From an uncultured Poribacteria bacterium (GTDB lineage: Bacteria; Poribacteria; WGA-4E; WGA-3G), in NCBI GenBank assembly GCA_951813565.1, contig OX638351.1, positions 2,976,001 to 3,040,000 on the forward strand: a stretch of 64,000 bases of DNA. The letters run 5' to 3'. Both the position numbers and the translations under genes were made by a program. Position 1 is the first letter of the stretch, and each line of letters opens with the position of its first letter. The notes below the pieces were generated by a model, which worked only from the letters and a program-made list of their open reading frames with translations, was not told the DNA's origin and did no database searches. Below, piece after piece: positions 1,227-22,626 of this stretch.

Positions 1227-2687
1227 TTAATTTTCATCACTCCCATCACGAAGTACCGGATTATAGAGACAGAGTTCCGCATCTACAATTCTGCCATCAG
1301 GTAACGTATACTGATTTGGGGTGCCGCCGCCCCACGGTGCTGTCCAATCTTTACTGCGTTCTTTATCATTATCTTTCTTTTGCTGCACAGCTTCCCAAGA
1401 GAATCCTTCCATGAGTTGTTCATGTAGGGATGCTTCCAATTCACGATGTTCAGGTTTTCCAGTAAGATTCTCAAATTCGTCTGGGTCATTTTCTAAATCA
1501 AACAAGATGGATTCATCTTCAGGGAAAGCGACATACTTATAACGAGGTGTTCTCAACATACGCATCGGTCCAGTTGTTTGATTTGCCCAGTATTCGCTGA
1601 TTGCGGTGTTTCGCCAACCATCCGAATTTCCATTCATCAGATTTGACAAATCTGCACCGTCTAAATCGTCGGGAATCGGGATGCCTGCCCTTGCACATAG
1701 CGTCGGGAAAAGATCGTTTAATTCGACAGGAGCGTCAACACGTTTAACGTGTGTCCCTTCTGATCGTGTATCGTGTATAATGAGTGGCACTCGCGCTGCT
1801 GCTTCATAATAGCTGGATTTCCACCATTGCCCATGTTCACCAGCCATCTCACCGTGGTCGGTGGTATAAACGATAATTGTGTTCTCTAATAGACCATCGC
1901 GTTCTAAGATCGTCAGCAAATCACCGACACATTCATCCAAGAATTCGCAGCAGGCATAGTATGCCGCGCGCGCTTTGCGTGTCTCTTCCTCTGTAATGGC
2001 TGCTGTGTTGAAGGTCTTTCTTAATCCTGCCGCATAGCGGTGTGTCTGTTCCAAGTGTCCCGGTGGTATGTTAGGCATGTCCACATTATCGGGATAGTAT
2101 TTGTCAAGAAGCCGTTTGGGCGCGGTAAGTGGAAAGTGAGGACGACTGTAACTTGCGAGCAAAAACCACGGTTGGTCAGCAGGTTGTGATCTTAAGTATT
2201 CTATCGTTTCTTCGTTGACCACCCGTTCTTGTAGAAGACTCGATGGAATTTCTGTTACCCCAGCATCCTTTGTACGATTCTTGTTGTTCCGTAGTGGATC
2301 ACGTTGATGTCCAGCGCGTCCACGCAGATCACCATAAGGACGCGATTGAAATCCATTATGCTGCTCTTTTCCACCAAAGTGCATCTTCCCAACAAGCGCG
2401 GTCGCATATCCGTGTTCTGCAAAATGTGCAGGCATCGTGAGGTGTTCAGGATACAGGATTGAACCGTTATTCCAAGCGGAACAACGATGTGCGTATTTTC
2501 CTGTCAGCATACACATCCGTGAGGGAGTGCAAAGCGGGAATTGACAGTATGCCGCATTAAAGTAGTTTCCGGATTCTGCAAGCCGATCAAGGTGGGGGGT
2601 TTGGACAATATTATTGCCTTCACATCCGATAGCGTGTGGACTGTGTTCATCACTCTGGAGAAATAGGATATTCGGTTTTTGAGCCAT
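1227..2687 (-). CDS. Sulfatase (choline-sulfatase-like)
   Basis: KPNILFLQSDEH start, formylglycine motif CTPSR, GKMH, TDHG; AGGAGG SD before ATG 2687. Confidence 0.9.
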   Translation of the reverse strand: MAQKPNILFLQSDEHSPHAIGCEGNNIVQTPHLDRLAESGNYFNAAYCQFPLCTPSRMCMLTGKYAHRCSAWNNGSILYPEHLTMPAHFAEHGYATALVGKMHFGGKEQHNGFQSRPYGDLRGRAGHQRDPLRNNKNRTKDAGVTEIPSSLLQERVVNEETIEYLRSQPADQPWFLLASYSRPHFPLTAPKRLLDKYYPDNVDMPNIPPGHLEQTHRYAAGLRKTFNTAAITEEETRKARAAYYACCEFLDECVGDLLTILERDGLLENTIIVYTTDHGEMAGEHGQWWKSSYYEAAARVPLIIHDTRSEGTHVKRVDAPVELNDLFPTLCARAGIPIPDDLDGADLSNLMNGNSDGWRNTAISEYWANQTTGPMRMLRTPRYKYVAFPEDESILFDLENDPDEFENLTGKPEHRELEASLHEQLMEGFSWEAVQQKKDNDKERSKDWTAPWGGGTPNQYTLPDGRIVDAELCLYNPVLRDGSDEN

Positions 2688-10583: not shown

Positions 10584-10657
10584 GGGCGGGTAGCTCAGGT
10601 GGCTAGAGCGACAGCCTTACAAGCTGTAGGTCACAGGTTCAAGTCCTGTCCCGCCTA
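10584..10657 (+). tRNA. tRNA-Val(TAC)
   Basis: Acceptor GGGCGGG/CCCGCCT, anticodon arm ACAGC-CTTACAA-GCTGT, GGTTCAAGTCC; CCA not encoded. Confidence 0.95.
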
Positions 10658-10676
10658 CTTGTTAGAGGCATCTTAT

Positions 10677-10751
10677 GGGCTCGTGGCGCAGATGGTTTAG
10701 CGCGCCTGCCTGTCACGCAGGAGGTCGCGGGTTCAAGTCCCGTCGGGCCCG
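10677..10751 (+). tRNA. tRNA-Asp(GTC)
   Basis: Acceptor GGGCTCG/CGGGCCC, anticodon arm CCTGC-CTGTCAC-GCAGG, GGTTCAAGTCC. Confidence 0.95.
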
Positions 10752-12506: not shown

Positions 12507-13490
12507 ATGGCAAAGACCATTGATGAAAAAGTCAATACCGTCATAACATATAATACTTTCTGGTACAATAATAGAGTTTTTGAGGAAAATTATGAAGCGC
12601 ACATCACATCTCTAAAGGAAACTCTACTTGTCCTGAGAAACCAAGTTCAAAACCAAGGACTCACTAAAGAGTTACTTGACGCTCTAATTTTGGAAAAAAC
12701 AAACGGGTTAAAAGTTCTATTGACTTTGACTGGATTTTCTAATGAACACTTTAAACGATTGATTACATTTATCAGGGTCATTGACGATGAAGAACTCTCA
12801 CAACTTTCTTGTAGGAACCTATGGATAGATGAAGCTGAGTTAGACGAGACGGGGGTAACAGAGTGGCAAGATGCCAAAATACAAAACAAAATACAAAATT
12901 GTGCTGATTTTAGGAGAGGGATCATCAATCTGTTCTTTGAAGGCTCTACGGTTCCCGTGCTTGCCAAAACTCTTCCGCTTTTTGAGTTAAAAAAATTAGG
13001 CGTTTCCAAACTTAGTTTTGAAGTTGAGGCGATGATTGATACGTTGATTCGGTATAAAGAGAAAGGTTCTTATTCAGGAAAGGCACAAAATAATGCTGAA
13101 GTCGTCATTGGAAAACTATTAGAAGAAATGGAAATCAGTTTTGAACAAAGTGTAGACTTAGAAAAGTTAAGAGAACACGCTCCAAACGAAAAGCGCACAA
13201 TGGATTTTATCATTCCCAACAGAGAAGAACCACAAGTCATTATTGAGTCTTCATATTCTAAAACAACTTCCTCTGGACAAGGTGATAAAGCAAAAACAGA
13301 GATTGCCATTAGAAACCTTCTTAGTAAACATTATTCTAATGCGCGCTTCTGGGGATTTGTTGACGGTATCGGTTGGTATGTTCGAAAAAAAGATTTGAGA
13401 AGAATGGTAGAAGCGTTTGAAGATGTATTTACTTTGGAAGAATCAGAACTTAGACGTTTCCAACAATCGCTAATTGCCGTTTTAAAATAA
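12507..13490 (+). CDS. Probable type II restriction endonuclease (PD-(D/E)xK)
   Basis: MDFIIP...IIESSY..TSSGQGDKAK, GFVDGIGW; adjacent to a methyltransferase. Confidence 0.7.
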   Translation: MAKTIDEKVNTVITYNTFWYNNRVFEENYEAHITSLKETLLVLRNQVQNQGLTKELLDALILEKTNGLKVLLTLTGFSNEHFKRLITFIRVIDDEELSQLSCRNLWIDEAELDETGVTEWQDAKIQNKIQNCADFRRGIINLFFEGSTVPVLAKTLPLFELKKLGVSKLSFEVEAMIDTLIRYKEKGSYSGKAQNNAEVVIGKLLEEMEISFEQSVDLEKLREHAPNEKRTMDFIIPNREEPQVIIESSYSKTTSSGQGDKAKTEIAIRNLLSKHYSNARFWGFVDGIGWYVRKKDLRRMVEAFEDVFTLEESELRRFQQSLIAVLK

Positions 13491-13531
13491 CAGAATGTTA
13501 ATAATCCCTCATGATTTATTCAAGGTGTACT

Positions 13532-14503
13532 ATGGAAAAATTTATCAACAAAATCATTCATGGAGATTGTATTGAGGTAATGCAGCAGATCCCTTCAGAT
13601 AGTATTGATGTGACATTTGCCGATCCGCCTTTTAACCTCAAAAAGAAGTACGGGACTTATAAGGACGAAAAGGGTACGGAAGATTATCTCAGTTGGTGCA
13701 AACAGTGGATTCTTGAAATGGTAAGGATAACAAAACCGAGTGGGTCCATCTTCTTGCACAATATTCCGAAATGGCTGACATATTATGCAGGGTTCCTAAA
13801 CGAAGTCGCAGATTTTCGGCACTGGATTGCATGGGACGCGCCAACAGCACCTATGGGAAAGACTTTGCAACCCTCACACTACGGCATTTTGTTTTATGCA
13901 AAAAATCAACGTGAAAATAAATTTTATGAAATTCGATATCCACATAAGCGGTGTCGGAAATGTGGATACTTGTTAAAAGACTACGGTGGAAAAAAGAAAA
14001 TTCTACACCCTTTTGGACCGCTTGTCTCTGATATATGGTCGGATATTCACCGAATTCGTCATAATAAACATAGAGACCCACATCCATGCCAACTCCCAGT
14101 ACATCTTTTAGAACGTCTTATATTGATGAGTACAGACGAAGGAGACGTGATCCTTGACCCGTTTATGGGAACTGGTACAACAGCTGTCGCAGCTGCAAGA
14201 TTGGGAAGAAACGTCATCGGTATAGATATTGATCCTCAATATGTGGAAATCACACAACGGAAATTAGCGCAAGAATCTCCAAACTCTAAAATTGAGGATA
14301 TCTGGGTAAGTTTTTATCTTGGTGAAATTGTTACAATTGTTGACAGAAACTGGGAAACGTTGAAGTCGTACTTTGTAATACCGGAGGACATGAGAGATAT
14401 TGACTTTGAAAAAATTAAAACTAATGGTGGTGTTGTTGCAACGGTACCTCAGTCCCTTCAACTTCCATTGAATCTTAAGGAGGAAAACTGTGACTGCTAT
14501 TGA
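13532..14503 (+). CDS. N4-C/N6-A DNA methyltransferase (beta class)
   Basis: FADPPF precedes HPCQLP and DPFMGTGTT. Confidence 0.92.
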   Translation: MEKFINKIIHGDCIEVMQQIPSDSIDVTFADPPFNLKKKYGTYKDEKGTEDYLSWCKQWILEMVRITKPSGSIFLHNIPKWLTYYAGFLNEVADFRHWIAWDAPTAPMGKTLQPSHYGILFYAKNQRENKFYEIRYPHKRCRKCGYLLKDYGGKKKILHPFGPLVSDIWSDIHRIRHNKHRDPHPCQLPVHLLERLILMSTDEGDVILDPFMGTGTTAVAAARLGRNVIGIDIDPQYVEITQRKLAQESPNSKIEDIWVSFYLGEIVTIVDRNWETLKSYFVIPEDMRDIDFEKIKTNGGVVATVPQSLQLPLNLKEENCDCY

Positions 14504-16889: not shown

Positions 16890-17393
16890 TTTGTATCAAA
16901 CGCACAGTTTTGAATCGATACTAAAATCCAAATTTATGAGGCTTCGGAAACGGATTTACTTATTACAAACTTTCCTTTAATGTGCCTTAATTATACCACT
17001 GCTTGTAAGGGAAGACAAGAAAAACCTTGTGCTTAAAAAAATAAAACAGGCGTGTAATAAGATAACGCCTGTTTTAAATTTCGGAAGCCATTATTAATAT
17101 AGTGAAACCTAAAAATAATTAAACACTTTCCTCCCACGGTAGGCGAGGTTTCCTAACCTCGCTGGTGCGGCGTGTCCGATTAATTCTAAGCCCACTATAA
17201 GAAGAAGAAACAGGATCTAATTTCCGTGTCCGGAGCATATAAGACATACCACGCCACAAACCCCATAGAATCCCAACAATAGGCCATAGCAAAAATCCGT
17301 ACTCACCCCCAGGAGTTAAGACTAAGACAACGTTTTCTCGAACAGCAAGCGGTGTTCCTTTCCCCGCAAACTCGTGGATTTCACTAACAATCC

Positions 17394-18484
17394 CAGGACT
17401 TACGCAATAATCAAAAATTGTGTTATACTATTGGATTATGATTTCATTTACACTTCCTGAAAAGAAGCAAAACTTACATTCCAACTATTGTCAATTTCTG
17501 ATAGCAAGTTTCACTAATTTCACACAAACCTATTTCGCAGACCATACTGAGAAGTGGAGCCACGATCAACTCAATCGATACCTGAGGAACGAAAACATTC
17601 CTTCAAGCGAACTCTGGAAATCTGTAAAACCGGACATTGAGTTTGATGAAGATGGATACATTGCCTTTGATGATGTCGTTCTCTCTAAGAAGTTTTCAAA
17701 ACAGATAGAAGCTGTTTACCATCAATGGAGTGGTAGCGACAAAAAAGTTATTCGTGGCATCGGTATTGTCACGTGTCTCTATGTCAACCCAAAAACTGGC
17801 GAGTATTGGGTCATTGATTATCGCATTTTTGACAAATCGCATGATGGTAAGACCAAAATAGACCATTTACTGGATATGTTGCATAATGCTGTCTTGAAAA
17901 AACAACTCCCGTTTCGGACCGTGTTGATGGATGCTTGGTATGTTTGTATGCAAGTGATGAAAGCGATTGAGAAACTTTCCAAGGTTTACTATGCGCCTCT
18001 GAAACGAAACCGACTTGTGAATGATACGGATGGTGTTGAACCACACCAGCATGTAGAAGATTTATCTTGGACACAGACAGAAAAGCAACAGGGGAAACGG
18101 GTTCACATCAAAAACTTTCCGAAAGGGCATCAAGTGAAGTTGTTCCGGATTGTATCTGAAAACGGACGCACGGAATATATTGTGACAAACGATTTATCTC
18201 AATCGGATGCGACTGCGACCAAAAACGAGTGTCGGGTTCGCTGGAAGATTGAGCAACTTCACCGTGAAATCAAACAGGTTACAGGTATTGATAAATGTCA
18301 GTGTCGTAAGTTGCGTGCCCAACGAAACCATATTGCCTGTTGTTTTCAGGTCTGGGTCTGTCTAATGCGTGCTGCACGGAAAGCCTCTCAAACGATTTAC
18401 CGACTCAAAGATAGTTTATTGGATGATTACATGCGACATCAACTCTCTAATCCTTCAATAATTTTCAAAACTGCGTAAGTCCTG
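17394..18484 (+). mobile_element. IS701-family insertion sequence
   Basis: IRs CAGGACTTACGCA / TGCGTAAGTCCTG, 5-bp TSD AATCC. Confidence 0.9.
17438..18478 (+). CDS. IS701-family DDE transposase
   Basis: AFDDVVLSK, VLMDAWY, RWKIEQLHREIKQVTG...CQCRK. Confidence 0.9.
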   Translation: MISFTLPEKKQNLHSNYCQFLIASFTNFTQTYFADHTEKWSHDQLNRYLRNENIPSSELWKSVKPDIEFDEDGYIAFDDVVLSKKFSKQIEAVYHQWSGSDKKVIRGIGIVTCLYVNPKTGEYWVIDYRIFDKSHDGKTKIDHLLDMLHNAVLKKQLPFRTVLMDAWYVCMQVMKAIEKLSKVYYAPLKRNRLVNDTDGVEPHQHVEDLSWTQTEKQQGKRVHIKNFPKGHQVKLFRIVSENGRTEYIVTNDLSQSDATATKNECRVRWKIEQLHREIKQVTGIDKCQCRKLRAQRNHIACCFQVWVCLMRAARKASQTIYRLKDSLLDDYMRHQLSNPSIIFKTA

Positions 18485-18596
18485 AATCCCATAGAATTCA
18501 ATCAAATCCCCTTCCATCCGCTGTTTCATTTCAGAATCTGCAAGTGTATTATAAACAGGACTTACCCAAATTTAGCGGAACAGGGATATTTTTTAC

Positions 18597-19007
18597 GTCA
18601 TAGGGACCCACTACCTAAAGGTAGGGGCTTGTGCTTCCTCGCGACTGCGGTTTTCGCTTAGCGTCCACCGTCTTATTGTCGCTCCACTTTAGGCAGCCAA
18701 GCCTGCCCGTTTGATCTATTTTTCGCAATGTCGTGGGTTGGCTCTGTTTCCACCCATTTTATAGCTGCCCTTTCTACCAGGCACGCCACGCGACAAGTCC
18801 TTAGACTTCGGGAGGGGTTGCCTCCGCTCACGCATTCCAGTCTGCAGTGCTGCAGTGGCTTGATATGGACGCTATCCACCAACTTTATAGATTTCGTTAT
18901 AGCGATGGGTTTTATTCCGCTTTCGCTGGACATTTTGTGATGTCCATCACATTGTTAGCCGTGGACATCCCCGCGCTAAAGCAACGGGGGCTTGACACAG
19001 AAAAACG
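18597..19007 (-). mobile_element. IS200/IS605-type non-autonomous element with no ORF
   Basis: Minus strand: TTAT then GTCAAGCCCCCGTTGCTTTAGCGCGGGG hairpin; other end AAGCCCCTACCTTTAGGTAGTGGG...TGAC. Confidence 0.6.
18632..18960 (-). ncRNA. Candidate structured RNA, copy 1
   Basis: Motifs and covarying stems shared with 20480-20885; strand inferred from the neighbouring genes. Confidence 0.5.
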
Positions 19008-19054
19008 ATAACAGACATCTAAAGTACCTGTTCAAAGTTTACAATTTCCTTTCG

Positions 19055-19525
19055 TCACGCTTTTTTACCTTCAGATTTGGAAGGCTCATCTGTATCAGTT
19101 ACCTTTAAAAACTTCATGACAGCTTCGCCCTTTTCGCGGCTCTCTGAAGGAAGTAACTTTCTGGATCTAGCCGCAATACGTTCTCTAAGTTCGGGAGATT
19201 GTTCTGACATCATCTTTATAAATTTCGCCTCAAACTTCTCCCGGAAAGAGGCAAAACGTTTGCGCCTCTCTGTACTTTTTTCCTCCGTAGTCGCAGAATC
19301 GGGCAGTTTTGGCCTCAGGAATTCAGGAAATGCTGCTATTATCTTCTTACAGAGTTGAAACTCTCTATCCTTTTTGAGGTTCGGATTGTCCTCACATTCT
19401 TTAAGGAAACGTTGTGTGTTCTCATACTCTTGTTGAAGTAATACCTCAAGTTCTTCAGCTTCCGCTGTCTTTTCAGATTCATCAGAAATCGGTTCAGGGT
19501 TCACAAGTACTTTTTTGGTTCCCAT
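19055..19525 (-). CDS. Hypothetical charged helical protein, MGTKKV paralogue 1 (intact)
   Basis: AAAGGAG SD; N-terminus shared with two other copies. Confidence 0.7.
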   Translation of the reverse strand: MGTKKVLVNPEPISDESEKTAEAEELEVLLQQEYENTQRFLKECEDNPNLKKDREFQLCKKIIAAFPEFLRPKLPDSATTEEKSTERRKRFASFREKFEAKFIKMMSEQSPELRERIAARSRKLLPSESREKGEAVMKFLKVTDTDEPSKSEGKKA

Positions 19526-19870
19526 TTTGGTTCTCCTTTCACCACACGTTTATGGTGAATGTCGGTTGGATTCTTTCCAGTTAAACCGTTCTACCCAACC
19601 GTAAATCGTTACCTGAGTAAGATTGAATCTTTTGCCGAAAAAGGTTAAGACTATATAAAAAGGTCTATAATAACCTTTAGGCGCATGTGCTTCTAAATGA
19701 AAATAAAACTCCTGCTTCATCGGACAAAAATTAGGTAATTATTGCAAAAATCGCGACAATTACGTAAGTCCTGATAGTATTACAAATCAAATCGCAATCA
19801 CCGTCTATGACTAGACAACTACAGCTTTGTTGCTTGAGGATCATCAGATATCAAAATGCCCGTAAACAAA

Positions 19871-20232
19871 TTAGTGATTTTTCTTCGATTCCGTTTTCTG
19901 TTTTTCAAGTTCAGAGGGTTGCTCTGTGTCGGTCATCTTCATCTCACGCAGGAAATCTTCCGTGCGTTCTGTGGACCCCGATGGAAGTTTCGGAAGTATA
20001 CTTCTAAGATTAGAAGCAACCATTTCTCTAAGTTTAGGTTTTTTTTCATTATGCATTGAATCCAACCTTCTTTTTCTCTTCCAGGATTGTCCTTACTTTC
20101 TTTGAGGAAACGTTGTACGTTATCATACTCTTGCTGTAGTAATGTATCTTCTGCTTCTGCTTCTGCTTCCGCTGTCTTTTCAGATTCATCAGAAATCGGT
20201 TCAGGGTTCACAAGTACTTTTTTGGTTCCCAT
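19871..20232 (-). pseudogene. MGTKKV paralogue 2, frameshifted
   Basis: C-terminal homology (PKLP, STER, MTDTEQPS) lies in a second frame; A8 tract at 20039-20046. Confidence 0.6.
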
Positions 20233-20360
20233 TCTGGTTCTCCTTTCACCACACGTTTATGGTGAATGTCGGTTGGGTTCTTTCCAGTAAAACCTTTGTG
20301 CCCAACCAGAAATCGTTACCTGAGTAAGATTCAGTTTAAGTATACGGTTGCTATATCAAA

Positions 20361-20432
20361 CATCGCAATCGCCGTCATCGCAATCGCCGTCATCGCAATC
20401 GCCGTCATCGCAATCGCCATCATCGCAATCGG
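20361..20432. repeat. 15-bp tandem repeat, about 4.8 copies
   Basis: CATCGCAATCGCCGT units. Confidence 0.95.
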
Positions 20433-20479
20433 CGAACGCTTCAAACAAAAGTGTTTGTTCAAAACGAGTCGTTTCGTCT

Positions 20480-20885
20480 AAGTCAGGATTTTGGTAAACC
20501 TTCAGGACATTCCCTATTAGAAGTCCTGCGAAGATCAACATACCTGTTTTAGATGGCAAGATTCTTTTTTGTGAAGTGGCACTGCTTCACCCGAAACAGT
20601 TCATTGTTGTCCTTCTTACCAGACACCCCAACACAACAAGAGATGACTTACTTCTCTTGGGGGTCTTTTATACAATATGTCTACTCGCTCCTTTTGAGAG
20701 TTCGCTATTTAGCGACTTTGGTAGGATACATTGCAGATATGTGCTGCATATCAACCCGCTCACGTGTTCGGGTTCACATTCGACTGGCATGATATGGATG
20801 CTCTCCACCAACGGACATGGTTGAAGATGTAACAGGACATCCTCTTTCTGTGGGCAGTCTGTGATACCCCGCACTTGTTAGCGGT
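20480..20885 (-). ncRNA. Candidate structured RNA, copy 2
   Basis: Follows an identical IS200/605-type hairpin (20894-20915); homologous motifs to copy 1; 3' boundary uncertain. Confidence 0.5.
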
Positions 20886-21018
20886 GTCTACATCCCCGCG
20901 CTAAAGCAACGGGGGCTTGACACAGAAAAACGATAACAGACATCTAAAGTACCCGTTCAAAGTTTATGATTTTCTTTCGTCACGCTTTTTCTCTTCAGGT
21001 TTGGAAGGCTCATCTGTA

Positions 21019-21444
21019 TCAGTTACCTTCTAAAAACTTCATGAAAGCTTCGCTCTTTTCGCGCTTTTCGCGGCTTTCTGAAGTAATTACCTTTCTAGCT
21101 TCCATAGTCTTTATAAGTCTCGCCCCAAACTTCTCCCGGAAAACGACCAAACGTTTGTGCCTCTCTGTACGTTTTTCCTCCGTAGTTGCAGAATCGGGCA
21201 GTTTTGACCTCATGATTTCGGGCAATTCTGCTATTATCTCCCTACCGAGTTGAAGCGCTACCTCCTTTTCTTTTGGATCGTCAATGCATTCTATGAGGGT
21301 CGGATCGTCTTCACATTCTTTAAGAAGACGTTGTAATTTATCTAACTCTTGTTGATGTAATACCTCAAATTCTTCAGCTTCCGCTGTCTTTTCAGATTCA
21401 TCAGAAATCGGTTCAGGGTTCACAAGTACTTTTTTGGTTCCCAT
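21019..21444 (-). CDS. MGTKKV paralogue 3, C-terminus shortened by a 1-bp insertion
   Basis: Ends MKFLEGN* where copy 1 reads MKFLKVTDTDEPSK; DNA homology continues past the stop. Confidence 0.65.
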   Translation of the reverse strand: MGTKKVLVNPEPISDESEKTAEAEEFEVLHQQELDKLQRLLKECEDDPTLIECIDDPKEKEVALQLGREIIAELPEIMRSKLPDSATTEEKRTERHKRLVVFREKFGARLIKTMEARKVITSESREKREKSEAFMKFLEGN

Positions 21445-22287
21445 TTTGGTTCTCCTTTCACCGCACATTCATGATAAATGTCGGTTGAATTCTTTCCAGT
21501 TAAACCGTTGTGCCCAACCGGAAATCGTTACCTGAGTAAGATTGAGTCTTTTGCTGATTTTAGCACAATTGTCCTTGAAACGTCAAAAACACAAGCATCA
21601 ACTTTTGATGGGCTTACAAATACCTCGACTGATAACAGTAACAGACCATTTGAGTATACGGTTGCTATATCAAAAGAGCCTTTCAGTTCTTACATATACC
21701 CATAAAAATGTCAGCTGGGCACTTCGCTATGTGCTACAAGGGGTTATGTTGCTTCACTTAACTTCCTCTCCTTTTGCTATTCCACTTCACCCTGTAGGTA
21801 TTTCATTGTCTCTTTTAAAGTCTCCTTTTTTGTATGCAAACTGGTTTTCTAAAGAATTCACATGTACGTGTTATCCAAACGGATAAGACAACCATACCTA
21901 AATAAATTTAACACCGACTAAAAATGTGTACAACTAAACAATATAGTGCAACTGCATGGAAATCCTCCGAATCATGCGGGTTGCTGTTACTTTTATGAAT
22001 GATAACATTTCTACAAAAAAAATCAAGAAAAAAATCCTACGGATGTTTTCAAAGTTCTTCAGAATACGGGAAATCCGCTATCCACCAGACGTTAAATCAA
22101 ATTACAAAAGCGGAAGCCTATCGGGAATGAAGATGATTACATTTCTGTACCTTTCATGGATACATCTCTATCCCTTTCAGGACTTACGCACAAATGGTAG
22201 GCGCTTTTTGATGAAGATTAAAAAAATATTTCGGTAATTTCCTAACCATCGACATCTTGTTTTCTTGTGTGAGGTTCATTATCTGGT

Positions 22288-22438
22288 TGTCTGAATCACG
22301 GAAGGCGCGGAAGACGCGGAGAACGCGGAAAGAAGAATGTTTTGATAATCCAACCTGTTTATTTGTGAAGGTAAATATGGAAACACAATAGCATTTTCCG
22401 TGTTCTCTGTGTTTTCCGCGTTTTCCGCGATTCAGACA
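22288..22438. repeat. 44-bp-arm inverted repeat with internal 9-bp periodicity
   Basis: TGTCTGAATCACGGAAGGCGCGGAAGACGCGG... / ...TTCCGCGTTTTCCGCGATTCAGACA. Confidence 0.85.
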
Positions 22439-22467
22439 GAAAAAAGATCAAAAGGACCGAATTAATA

Positions 22468-22626
22468 ACGTGAGTTTGATAATTAACTGGACAGGCAAAA
22501 ATTGAACAGAGAACGGGCATATTTGCTGAAAAAATCGTTATTTTGGTGTTTTTAACCCCTAAATCCCCCTTATCAGAGGACTTTAAGAGGAAATGTAGAA
22601 ATCCTAACTATTTATCAAACTCACGT
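22468..22626. mobile_element. IS982-type MITE
   Basis: ACGTGAGTTTGATAA ends, 8-bp TSD AATTAATA; near-identical to 37329-37489. Confidence 0.88.

What the first reader, a model, noticed from the sequence alone, without database searches (positions are those of the whole stretch)
18597..20936. Candidate new large structured RNA in two diverged copies, each behind an IS200/IS605-type end hairpin
Seen: tracts 18632-18960 and 20480-20885 (minus strand) both follow the identical hairpin GTCAAGCCCCCGTTGCTTTAGCGCGGGG. They are diverged overall but keep motifs in the same order: GCTAACAA, ATCACA, GTTGGTGGA(T/G)AGC(G/A)TCCATATCA(A/T)GCCA, CGTGAGCGG, CTGGTA, CAG(A/T)GCCA, GATC. Stems are preserved by compensatory changes: TGGACAT/ATGTCCA vs GGGTA/TGCCC, TGCCT/GGGCA vs TGTCT/GGACA, and GTGG/CCAC vs GTGA/TCAC. 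The conserved loop segments TGGT and GCCA could form a kissing interaction. Neither tract has a credible ORF. Known: IS200/IS605 ends are associated with omega-RNAs, HEARO RNAs and IStrons, but I do not recognise HEARO motifs, group I P/Q/R/S elements or a group II domain V here. Copy 2 does begin GTGCG (20874-20870), like a group II intron 5' end. Inference: an undescribed ncRNA class carried as cargo by Y1-transposase-mobilised elements.
Basis: partly seen in the sequence, partly recalled or inferred. Interest (0 to 1): 0.9.

Follow-up and report, generated by a model that had tools for sequence, protein, structure and literature searches.

The report
ORF-less IS605 elements with folded RNA
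The two tracts are gene-less copies of a hairpin-ended jumping element of sponge-symbiont bacteria that carry a TnpB guide RNA at one end and, in front of it, a conserved folded RNA domain that matches no described RNA family.

Summary
Both tracts are ORF-less IS200/IS605 derivatives (PATE/MITE type). Copy 1 (18597-19007, minus) belongs to family F1, which has 8 copies in this genome. Copy 2 (20541-20932, minus) is a 3'-truncated member of family F2, which has 4 copies.

The "identical hairpin" is a genuine IS200/IS605 left end. It is identical in the two copies because a local duplication or gene conversion covers the upstream paralogous genes and the left end.

The last 116 nt of copy 1 are the 3' end of tnpB plus the right end, which is the TnpB guide-RNA (omega-RNA) scaffold. 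That block is shared with 29 resident IS ends.

Between the ends lies a domain of 190-290 nt. Five of its hairpins are 95% paired across 31 sequences, and 16 of 23 pairs change on both sides (0 of 500 shuffles reach this). A sixth, long-range helix is also kept. The domain has no Rfam match and is not a group I, group II or HEARO RNA.

I found it only in Candidatus Poribacteria, always in short ORF-less elements. Its function is unknown. My best guess is an accessory 5' domain of the guide-RNA precursor. It is a new variant of a known kind and moderately interesting.

The parts
18597..19007 (-). Copy 1: a complete ORF-less IS200/IS605 element (411 nt) of family F1. Its left end is of the F2 type, so it is chimeric.
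   Evidence: 8 full-length copies at 93-100% identity in the genome. Boundaries come from the flank comparison.
19008..19011 (-). TTAT target motif (TAM-like) abutting the left end of copy 1.
   Evidence: ATTAT/TTTAT abuts the left ends of the F2 copies and of the four tnpB-only IS copies.
18961..19007 (-). Left end. Inner hairpin CCCCG...CGGGG lies inside 18969-18996. An outer stem CTGTG/CACGG encloses it.
   Evidence: 84-88% identical to the left ends of 4 tnpB-only IS copies. The outer stem covaries among relatives by eye.
18766..18950 (-). 5' structured domain. hpA 18928-18945. Stem B 18902-18926. hpD 18866-18878. hpE 18837-18858. Helix K 18829-18833 with 18788-18792, enclosing hpF 18811-18825 and hpL 18795-18808. 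hpG 18766-18783.
   Evidence: Covariation counts. Helix K is fully paired in 59 of 72 distinct elements and 4 of 5 paired in 13. hpL is 5 of 5 paired in the 41 of 72 elements parsed. No Rfam hit.
18733..18755 (-). Hairpin hpI. Its loop (GAGCC) is complementary to the loop of the hairpin formed by the last tnpB codons. It is the probable pseudoknot strand of the guide-RNA scaffold.
   Evidence: A-U in F1, U-A in F2 and C-G in L041 at the same contact. The contact is ambiguous in G130.
18597..18715 (-). Last 27 nt of tnpB plus the right end. This is the TnpB omega-RNA scaffold block with the right-end hairpin. The element ends at ...CTATGAC.
   Evidence: 90.8-99.2% identical to 29 other places. 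In L009 and L019 the block overlaps the stop of a 370-aa OrfB_IS605/Cas12f-TNB ORF.
20541..20932 (-). Copy 2: a 3'-truncated F2 element (392 nt; full F2 elements are 555-580 nt). hpA 20852-20869. hpG 20608-20625. hpI 20571-20590. The terminal guide-RNA hairpin and the right end are missing.
   Evidence: 4 copies in the genome, of which the other 3 run about 160 nt further to a right end like that of the tnpB-only IS. The missing part is absent from the window.
20894..20921 (-). Left-end hairpin of copy 2. The TTAT target is at 20933-20936.
19055..19525 (-). 156-aa ORF with no Pfam family. Copy 1 lies about 47 nt after its stop, in the same orientation. It is the likely source of read-through transcription.
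   Evidence: No promoter-like site inside either element.
21019..21468 (-). 149-aa paralogue of the 156-aa ORF. Copy 2 sits at the same place behind it.

Best explanation
Each tract is a non-autonomous IS200/IS605 element (PATE type).

Shown:
- It is bounded by a left-end and a right-end hairpin like those of the full-length tnpA+tnpB and tnpB-only elements of the same genome.
- It sits 3' of a fixed short motif (TTAT for F2, about TTTAR for F1).
- It is repeated at unrelated sites.
- It has no gene.

Inferred from the family's known biology:
- It is moved in trans, as single-stranded DNA, by the Y1 transposase TnpA.
- Its sense transcript (the window's minus strand) ends in a TnpB guide RNA. 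The scaffold of that RNA is the right-end block, and its guide is the flanking DNA.
- Resident TnpB can therefore cut emptied sites and restore the element.

The transcript comes from read-through of the upstream gene in this window. In relatives it comes from an extended -10 promoter (TGnTATACT) just inside the left end.

In front of the guide scaffold the RNA carries a folded domain of 190-290 nt: hairpins A, B, D, E, a three-way junction K/F/L, and hairpin G. Compensatory changes keep these helices. My best guess (inference, about 0.4 on its own) is that this domain belongs to the guide-RNA precursor. It would stand where the tnpB mRNA body stands in a full element and help folding, stability, processing or TnpB loading.

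Window copy 2 has lost its guide end and is a dead fragment.
For: Repeat families and ends
- F1 has 8 copies, F2 has 4, and the 116-nt right-end block occurs at 29 further places.
- that block overlaps the stop codon of 370-aa ORFs with OrfB_IS605 and Cas12f1-like TNB domains. A Y1_Tnp ORF lies upstream.
- four tnpB-only IS copies share the F2 left-end hairpin.
- the F2 right end matches their right end.
- five IS-type Y1_Tnp reading frames score 118-139 bits without stops.

The internal domain is not part of the resident IS
- a profile of the elements hits the full IS copies only at the left end (positions 4-82) and the right end (about 369-564). Positions 83-368 hit only the 13 short elements.

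Structure
- the five hairpins are 95.0% paired, against 83.4% in shuffles and 30-42% when the partner is slid. 16 of 23 pairs change on both sides, and 0 of 500 shuffles reach that.
- helix K is 5 of 5 paired in 59 of 72 distinct elements, with three pair types at two positions.
- there are 60 G-U cells against 19 A-C cells, so the fold fits the sense strand (95.0% vs 89.3% paired).
- the sense strand folds with z = -2.5, against -1.4 for the other strand.
- the hpI loop pairs with the loop of the tnpB-terminal hairpin, as U-A, A-U or C-G in three lineages.

Expression
- relatives in G130 and G087 carry TGCTATACT upstream of the domain, like the tnpB-only IS.
- contigs of RNA libraries from 3 studies hold F1-like and F2-like elements. 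DNA carry-over cannot be excluded.

Literature
- PMC10055086 (passages read): PATEs that encode omega-RNAs used in trans are known.
Against: - No full-length element with this domain was found. There were 0 among the 13 elements in this genome. The 30 loci had no TnpB within about 1.5 kb. All 42 real pattern hits were short elements. So the domain is not visibly derived from a tnpB gene.
- A profile of 44 IS 3' ends aligns only to the last 120 nt or so of the elements.
- The same domain is joined to two different left-end and right-end types (F1 vs F2/G130). This suggests a module that is independent of any one TnpB.
- In L039-L041 and L042 the hpD/hpE part, or all of hpA-hpE, is replaced. The domain is therefore not uniform.
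- The hpI contact is ambiguous in G130.
- Nothing here shows an RNA end, a strand or TnpB binding.
Confidence: 0.55

Rival explanations
1. IStron-like reading. The 5' domain is a ribozyme of a class other than group I. It either splices the element out of host transcripts or cleaves itself free of read-through mRNA, which would make insertions harmless.
For: - The architecture is the same as in IStrons: left end, then a large folded RNA, then the omega-RNA, then the right end. ORF-less IStron forms are known, namely 482-nt BcISt1 variants (PMC4227781, sections 14-15 read) and a C. difficile PATE with IStron ends (bioRxiv 10.1101/2023.11.20.567912, passages).
- The F2 target ATTAT/TTTAT equals two group A IStron targets.
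- Neighbouring ORFs of at least 90 aa are co-oriented with the element in 15 cases against 4.
- One insertion (L077) lies inside a 471-codon frame, in sense and in frame.
- Many unpaired positions are conserved.
Against: - RF00028 gives no hit even at E<=10 on the window or on 8 relatives' loci. That model found all known IStrons at 20 bits or more.
- The elements end in ...GAC or ...CAA, with no terminal G.
- Only 2 nt separate hpL from the 3' strand of helix K, at the place where a group I fold needs the P7 strand.
- Only 1 of 46 insertion sites is clearly intragenic, against 58% for IStrons.
- No contig joins across an element (contigs only, so this is weak).
Confidence: 0.15
2. The domain is an independent small-RNA cargo, such as a regulator or a protein-binding RNA. 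It would benefit the host or the element, and it merely travels next to the guide RNA.
For: - It is joined to two different end types.
- Another ORF-less family (F3) has the same ends but carries an unrelated cargo behind a perfect TTGACA-17-TATATT promoter. Cargo swapping therefore occurs.
- An RNA-library contig over the F2 domain has depth 86-349, against 17 for the neighbouring gene. Copy number confounds this comparison.
Against: - I found no target, partner gene or stand-alone copy. Profile positions 83-368 occur only inside the short elements.
- The hpI loop covaries with the guide-RNA hairpin.
Confidence: 0.13
3. The hairpins act in the single-stranded DNA transposition intermediate, for example in TnpA handling or protection, and not in RNA.
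For: - IS200/IS605 elements move as one defined DNA strand, so a strand-specific G-T bias fits DNA as well as RNA.
- The outer left-end stem covaries.
Against: - The full IS copies transpose without this domain.
- Promoters are placed to transcribe it.
- The loops and junction strands are conserved.
- The domain is present in RNA-library contigs.
Confidence: 0.07
4. The domain is a functionless relic of decayed tnpA and tnpB sequence. It is conserved only because the families are young.
For: Weak, colinear translated resemblances exist. HIMPVECEPEHVSGLI resembles TnpA QIREVETQPEHVHLLI (9 of 16 identical, E 0.45 in a tiny database). The last 22-40 residues of TnpB are also weakly seen (E 0.37-4.9).
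Against: - No Y1_Tnp match at any element.
- With my own TnpA profile the best real score is 3.7 bits, against 4.9 in shuffles.
- There is no DNA similarity to the resident tnpA region.
- Compensatory changes in six helices would not be kept in a relic.
- Relatives in a second family of the order still hold the fold at about 65-70% identity by eye.
Confidence: 0.1

Closest known systems
Palindrome-associated transposable elements (PATEs): ORF-less IS200/IS605 derivatives that encode omega-RNAs used in trans by TnpB (Meers et al. 2023, PMC10055086, passages read)
   Same: They share left-end and right-end hairpins with resident autonomous elements. They have no gene and occur in many copies. 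The right end carries the TnpB guide-RNA scaffold, and mobilisation and guide use happen in trans.
   Different: These elements carry an extra conserved, covarying domain of 190-290 nt between the left end and the guide scaffold. That domain is absent from the resident full-length elements.
IStrons, especially ORF-less forms (Tourasse et al. 2014, PMC4227781; Zedaveinyte et al., bioRxiv 10.1101/2023.11.20.567912)
   Same: The order of parts is the same: left end, large structured RNA, omega-RNA, right end. The backbone is IS200/IS605. The F2 target ATTAT/TTTAT matches group A IStron targets.
   Different: There is no group I intron (no RF00028 hit and a different helix topology). There is no terminal G. 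Insertions are mostly intergenic. The host is Poribacteria, not Firmicutes or Fusobacteria. Splicing was not tested.
TnpB omega-RNA (right-end RNA) of IS605-family elements
   Same: The last 116-120 nt of F1 are the same sequence as the 3' ends of resident tnpB genes plus the right end. There is a long-range stem (GCGAC/GTCGC in F1, AGTGA/TCACT in F2) and a loop-loop contact like a scaffold pseudoknot.
   Different: The transcript would carry a 5' extension two to three times longer than the shared scaffold block, with no coding sequence under it.
HEARO RNA / IscB omega-RNA (RF02033; the name and accession are recalled, not taken from a call)
   Same: It is a large structured RNA placed next to the left end of an IS200/IS605-type element.
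   Different: No Rfam hit appeared at E<=10. No iscB gene was seen next to any examined copy. Where a promoter is present it lies inside the left end, so no 5' guide could come from the flank.

Membership tests
Non-autonomous IS200/IS605 element (PATE) | Subterminal left-end and right-end hairpins like those of autonomous elements in the same genome | tested here: met
   The left end is 84-88% identical to that of 4 tnpB-only IS copies. The right-end block is 91-99% identical to 29 IS ends.
Non-autonomous IS200/IS605 element (PATE) | Insertion 3' of a fixed short motif, with unrelated flanks and no target duplication | tested here: met
   TTAT/ATTAT for F2 and about TTTAR for F1. The right flanks are all different.
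Non-autonomous IS200/IS605 element (PATE) | No protein-coding gene, with a Y1 transposase available in trans | tested here: met
   No Pfam hit for the two ORFs. The ORF is not conserved (3 of 72). Five intact IS-type Y1_Tnp frames exist in the genome.
TnpB omega-RNA | Overlaps the 3' end of tnpB and runs to the right end | tested here: met
   The shared block begins 27 nt before the stop codon of 370-aa TnpB ORFs and ends at the right end. This holds for copy 1 only; copy 2 has lost the block.
TnpB omega-RNA | Bound and used by TnpB, with the guide taken from the right flank | not testable with these tools
   Needs pull-down and cleavage assays.
IStron | A group I (IA2) intron at the 5' side, detectable with RF00028 | tested here: not met
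   No RF00028 hit at E<=10 in window 17000-22500 or in 8 relatives' loci. Known IStrons score at least 20 bits.
IStron | Splice sites at the transposon ends, with a terminal G at the 3' end | tested here: not met
   F1 ends in ...CTATGAC and F2 in ...TATGTCAA.
IStron | Self-splicing that restores the host transcript | not testable with these tools
   Contigs showed no joint across an element, which proves nothing. 1 of 46 sites is intragenic.
Group II intron | GUGYG at the 5' end of the element, and domain V | tested here: not met
   GTGCG lies about 58 nt inside copy 2 and is GTGAT or GTGAC in relatives. No group II model hit.
HEARO / IscB omega-RNA | Match to the Rfam model, and an adjacent iscB gene | tested here: not met
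   No hit. The neighbouring ORFs are a DDE transposase and unknown small ORFs.

The most novel reading that the evidence does not exclude
The 5' domain is a new class of large structured RNA, possibly a ribozyme. It would play for these Poribacteria elements the role that the group I intron plays in IStrons: removing or detaching the element from host transcripts, coupled through the hpI pseudoknot to the TnpB guide RNA. That would be a second, independent marriage of a catalytic RNA with an IS200/IS605 transposon.
Probability: 0.15. Interest if true: 0.85.

Novelty: new variant of a known kind. Interest (0 to 1): 0.55.

Why it matters
ORF-less IS200/IS605 elements that carry TnpB guide RNAs are known. 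A conserved, covarying domain of 200-300 nt fused upstream of the guide scaffold has not been described in the papers I could search (searches; 0 papers hold both 'Poribacteria' and 'TnpB').

If the domain helps to make or load guide RNA, it shows how gene-less elements keep the guide function without a tnpB mRNA. It might also give a portable stabilising module for TnpB guides. If it is catalytic, it would be a new ribozyme class and a second IStron-like symbiosis.

Either way it is a well-defined RNA motif with enough natural variation to be modelled and tested: 72 distinct copies, 20 of 176 Poribacteria genomes, two families of one order.

Tried and rejected
- **Rfam.** Gathering cut-offs on the whole window gave only two tRNAs at 10584-10751. 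E<=10 on 17000-22500 and on 8 relatives' loci gave only chance-level hits below gathering.
- **Decayed tnpA/tnpB.**
  - tblastn at E<=50 gave only weak colinear bits.
  - Pfam on the two ORFs gave nothing.
  - A six-frame Y1_Tnp search of the genome hit none of the elements, although its first-look filter may miss weak relics.
  - My own TnpA profile gave 12 weak hits in 66 real frames (best 3.7 bits) against 14 in 1320 shuffled frames (best 4.9). This is inconclusive.
  - blastn of the IS 5' region against the elements found only the left end.
  - A profile of IS 3' ends found only the last 120 nt or so.
- **Group I topology.** Rejected, because only 2 nt lie where the P7 strand should be.
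Rejected.
- **An alternative local pairing TCATG/CGTGA around hpE.** Rejected in favour of helix K, because L037 (ACGCA) keeps K but breaks the local pairing.
- **hpC, hpL, K and hpI on the MAFFT alignment A2.** They are misaligned between F1 and F2 there. K and hpL were therefore counted by anchors instead. My first two anchor scripts were faulty: one search parsed only 6 elements, and picked wrong AGCGG sites for K.
- **Promoter scan.** No promoter-like site lies inside either window copy. Five sites were found in 3.2 kb against 5.5 expected.
- **RNA runs.** All four runs were contigs. No strand, ends or levels can be read from them, and parts without cover mean nothing. The only joint (18630 to 18719, skipping 88 nt, one contig, side 25) lies inside the right-end block and probably reflects another copy.
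- **Chance hits.** Three of the 45 pattern hits (L068, L078, L086) were chance matches in coding DNA.
Full report
**What is at the coordinates.**

Read on the minus strand, 18300-21300 holds a tandem of similar modules. Each module is a small ORF followed by non-coding DNA. The ORFs are 149 aa (21019-21468), 97 aa (19939-20232) and 156 aa (19055-19525); the 149-aa and 156-aa ORFs are each followed by one of the two tracts. A pairwise alignment shows that the two tracts are almost identical from the 3' ends of the ORFs through the hairpin up to GGGGATGT.

**They are repeat families with IS200/IS605 ends.**

- Copy 1 matches 7 other places in the genome over about 400 nt at 93-97% identity. Its last 116 nt match 29 further places at 90.8-99.2%.
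- In two of those places (L009, L019) the block begins 27 nt before the stop codon of a 370-aa ORF with OrfB_IS605 and Cas12f1-like TNB domains, which identifies TnpB. In L009 a Y1_Tnp ORF lies upstream. The block is therefore the tnpB 3' end plus the right end, which is where TnpB guide RNAs (omega-RNAs) are encoded.
- Copy 2 matches 3 other places at 86-94%.
- The hairpin of copy 2, with about 45 nt around it, matches the left ends of four tnpB-only elements.
- The three other F2 copies run about 160 nt further than the window copy. They end in a right end like that of those four elements.
- The window copy lacks this part, and neither piece of it occurs anywhere in the window.

Flank comparison sets the units at 18597-19007 and 20541-20932. 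F2 follows TTAT, and F1 follows a TTTAA/TTTAG-like motif.

The other seven F1 copies have a different left-end hairpin (GTCAAATCCCCATGCTTTAGCTTGTGGG). The window's copy 1 is therefore chimeric. The "identical hairpin" reflects a local duplication or gene conversion that spans the paralogous genes and the left end.

**The internal domain is not part of the resident elements.**

- A profile of 21 non-redundant elements hits the full IS copies of the genome only at the left end (positions 4-82) and at the right end (about 369-564). Positions 83-368 hit only 13 short elements.
- The full tnpA+tnpB element instead has a promoter and tnpA right after the left end, with no similarity to the domain.
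- A profile of 44 IS 3' ends reaches only the last 120 nt or so of the elements.
- Translated searches gave only weak hints of decayed transposase sequence. These did not beat shuffled controls.

**Distribution.**

- A two-part pattern over hpG and hpI found 45 places among one genome each of 185,579 species. 42 are such elements, all in Candidatus Poribacteria MAGs. Three are chance matches, about the number I had estimated beforehand.
- A 25-nt hpD/hpE pattern with up to 2 mismatches found the domain in 20 of 176 genomes of the phylum. These fall in 3 of 31 genera and two families of one order.
- All 30 fetched loci hold an element match of the profile, most of them 420-580 nt from end to end (L116 is partial), with no TnpB within about 1.5 kb. 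No full-length element with the domain was seen.

**Structure.**

On a plain MAFFT alignment of 31 sequences (A2), five hairpins (hpA, B, hpD, hpE, hpG) gave these figures:

| Measure | Observed | Control |
|---|---|---|
| Cells that form a standard pair | 95.0% | 83.4% in shuffles; 30-42% when the partner is slid |
| Pairs with a change on both sides | 16 of 23 | mean 7.6 in shuffles |
| Shuffles reaching the observed values | 0 of 500 | |

- hpG shows four different pair types at one position, and hpD shows three.
- A long-range helix K (ACGUG with UGUGU in F2, GCGUG with CGCGU in F1) encloses hpF and hpL. It is fully paired in 59 of 72 distinct elements and 4 of 5 paired in the other 13, with U-G, C-G and U-A at one position.
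- hpL reads AAGAG/CTCTT, AAGTC/GACTT or TAGAG/CTCTA (41 of 72 elements parsed).
- G-U cells outnumber A-C cells by 60 to 19, so the fold belongs to the sense strand.
- Copy 1 folds with z = -2.5 on that strand, against -1.4 on the other.
- Only 2 nt separate hpL from the 3' strand of K. This rules out a group I core arrangement at that place.

**Link to the guide RNA.**

The hpI loop is complementary to the loop of the hairpin formed by the last tnpB codons:

| Lineage | hpI loop | Terminal hairpin loop |
|---|---|---|
| F2 | GUGCC | GGCAU |
| F1 | GAGC | GCUU |
| L041 | ACGCC | GGCGU |

The same contact is thus U-A, A-U or C-G. In the tnpB-only IS the equivalent loop GGCGU faces ACGCU in the codons about 25 nt upstream (by eye). 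That looks like an omega-RNA pseudoknot. In G130 the contact is ambiguous. I therefore assign hpI, and everything 3' of it, to the guide scaffold. The 5' domain is hpA to hpG.

**Expression.**

- Neither window copy holds a promoter-like site. Both lie about 47 nt behind a co-oriented ORF.
- Relatives in G130 and G087 carry TGCTATACT, an extended -10 like that of the tnpB-only IS, just inside the left end and about 25 nt before hpA.
- Contigs from RNA libraries of 3 studies contain F1-like and F2-like elements. They cannot show strand or ends, and DNA carry-over is possible.
- Insertions are mostly intergenic. Only 1 of 46 sites is clearly inside a gene.

**Comparison with what is known.**

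- PATEs that encode omega-RNAs used in trans are described (PMC10055086, passages).
- IStrons place a group I intron at the left end and the omega-RNA at the right end. ORF-less forms exist (PMC4227781, sections 5, 14 and 15; bioRxiv 10.1101/2023.11.20.567912, passages).
- The present elements share that layout but fail the IStron tests that could be run. Supplementary tables of these papers were not read.

**Verdict.**

These are real elements. The ends and the guide block are ordinary for the IS200/IS605 family. The 5' domain is a new, well-supported RNA motif of unknown function. I file the finding as a new variant of a known kind.

Noticed in passing
own genome, e.g. G000:C1:2117802-2118217 (5 copies; not in the window): A third ORF-less family (F3, 5 identical copies) has the same left-end and right-end types as F1. 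Its cargo of about 240 nt is unrelated and begins with a perfect TTGACA-17-TATATT promoter.
   Followed up: partly
L108, L138-L143 (G130 copies): Units of about 31 nt (GCGCTCGCTCACGCGACCATCCGTCCTCGGAT-like) are inserted at several different points inside the elements, in both orientations. They may be the small mobile hairpin units that earlier notes on this genome describe. I did not compare them.
   Followed up: no
window 19055-19525, 19939-20232, 21019-21468 (minus): Three tandem paralogous small ORFs (156, 97 and 149 aa) have no Pfam family. The 156-aa and 97-aa ORFs share a conserved leader of about 100 nt (caatcttactcaggtaacgattt...ggtgaaaggagaacc). Two of the three have an element inserted at the same spot behind the stop codon.
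   Followed up: no
window about 20365-20440 (minus): A tandem array of GGCGATTGCGATGAC units lies directly behind the truncated copy 2.
   Followed up: no
window 17420-18478 (+): A 352-aa DDE (IS4-like, DDE_Tnp_1) transposase ORF ends 119 nt from the right end of copy 1. It is unrelated to the Y1 system.
   Followed up: no
window 12507-14503 (+): A DpnII-like restriction endonuclease ORF lies next to an N6/N4 DNA methylase ORF.
   Followed up: no
L042 (G087) about 1320-2200, minus strand: A variant element keeps K, hpF, hpL, hpG and hpI but has a different 5' part. That part holds a long hairpin (GGCAGACA...TGTCTGCC) behind its own TTGATA-17-TATACT promoter. The element lies about 60 nt downstream of the right end of a tnpB element.
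   Followed up: partly
L077 (JAAXGN010000161.1): One F1-type element sits inside a reading frame that is open for 217 codons before and 253 codons after the element, in sense and in frame once the element is removed.
   Followed up: no
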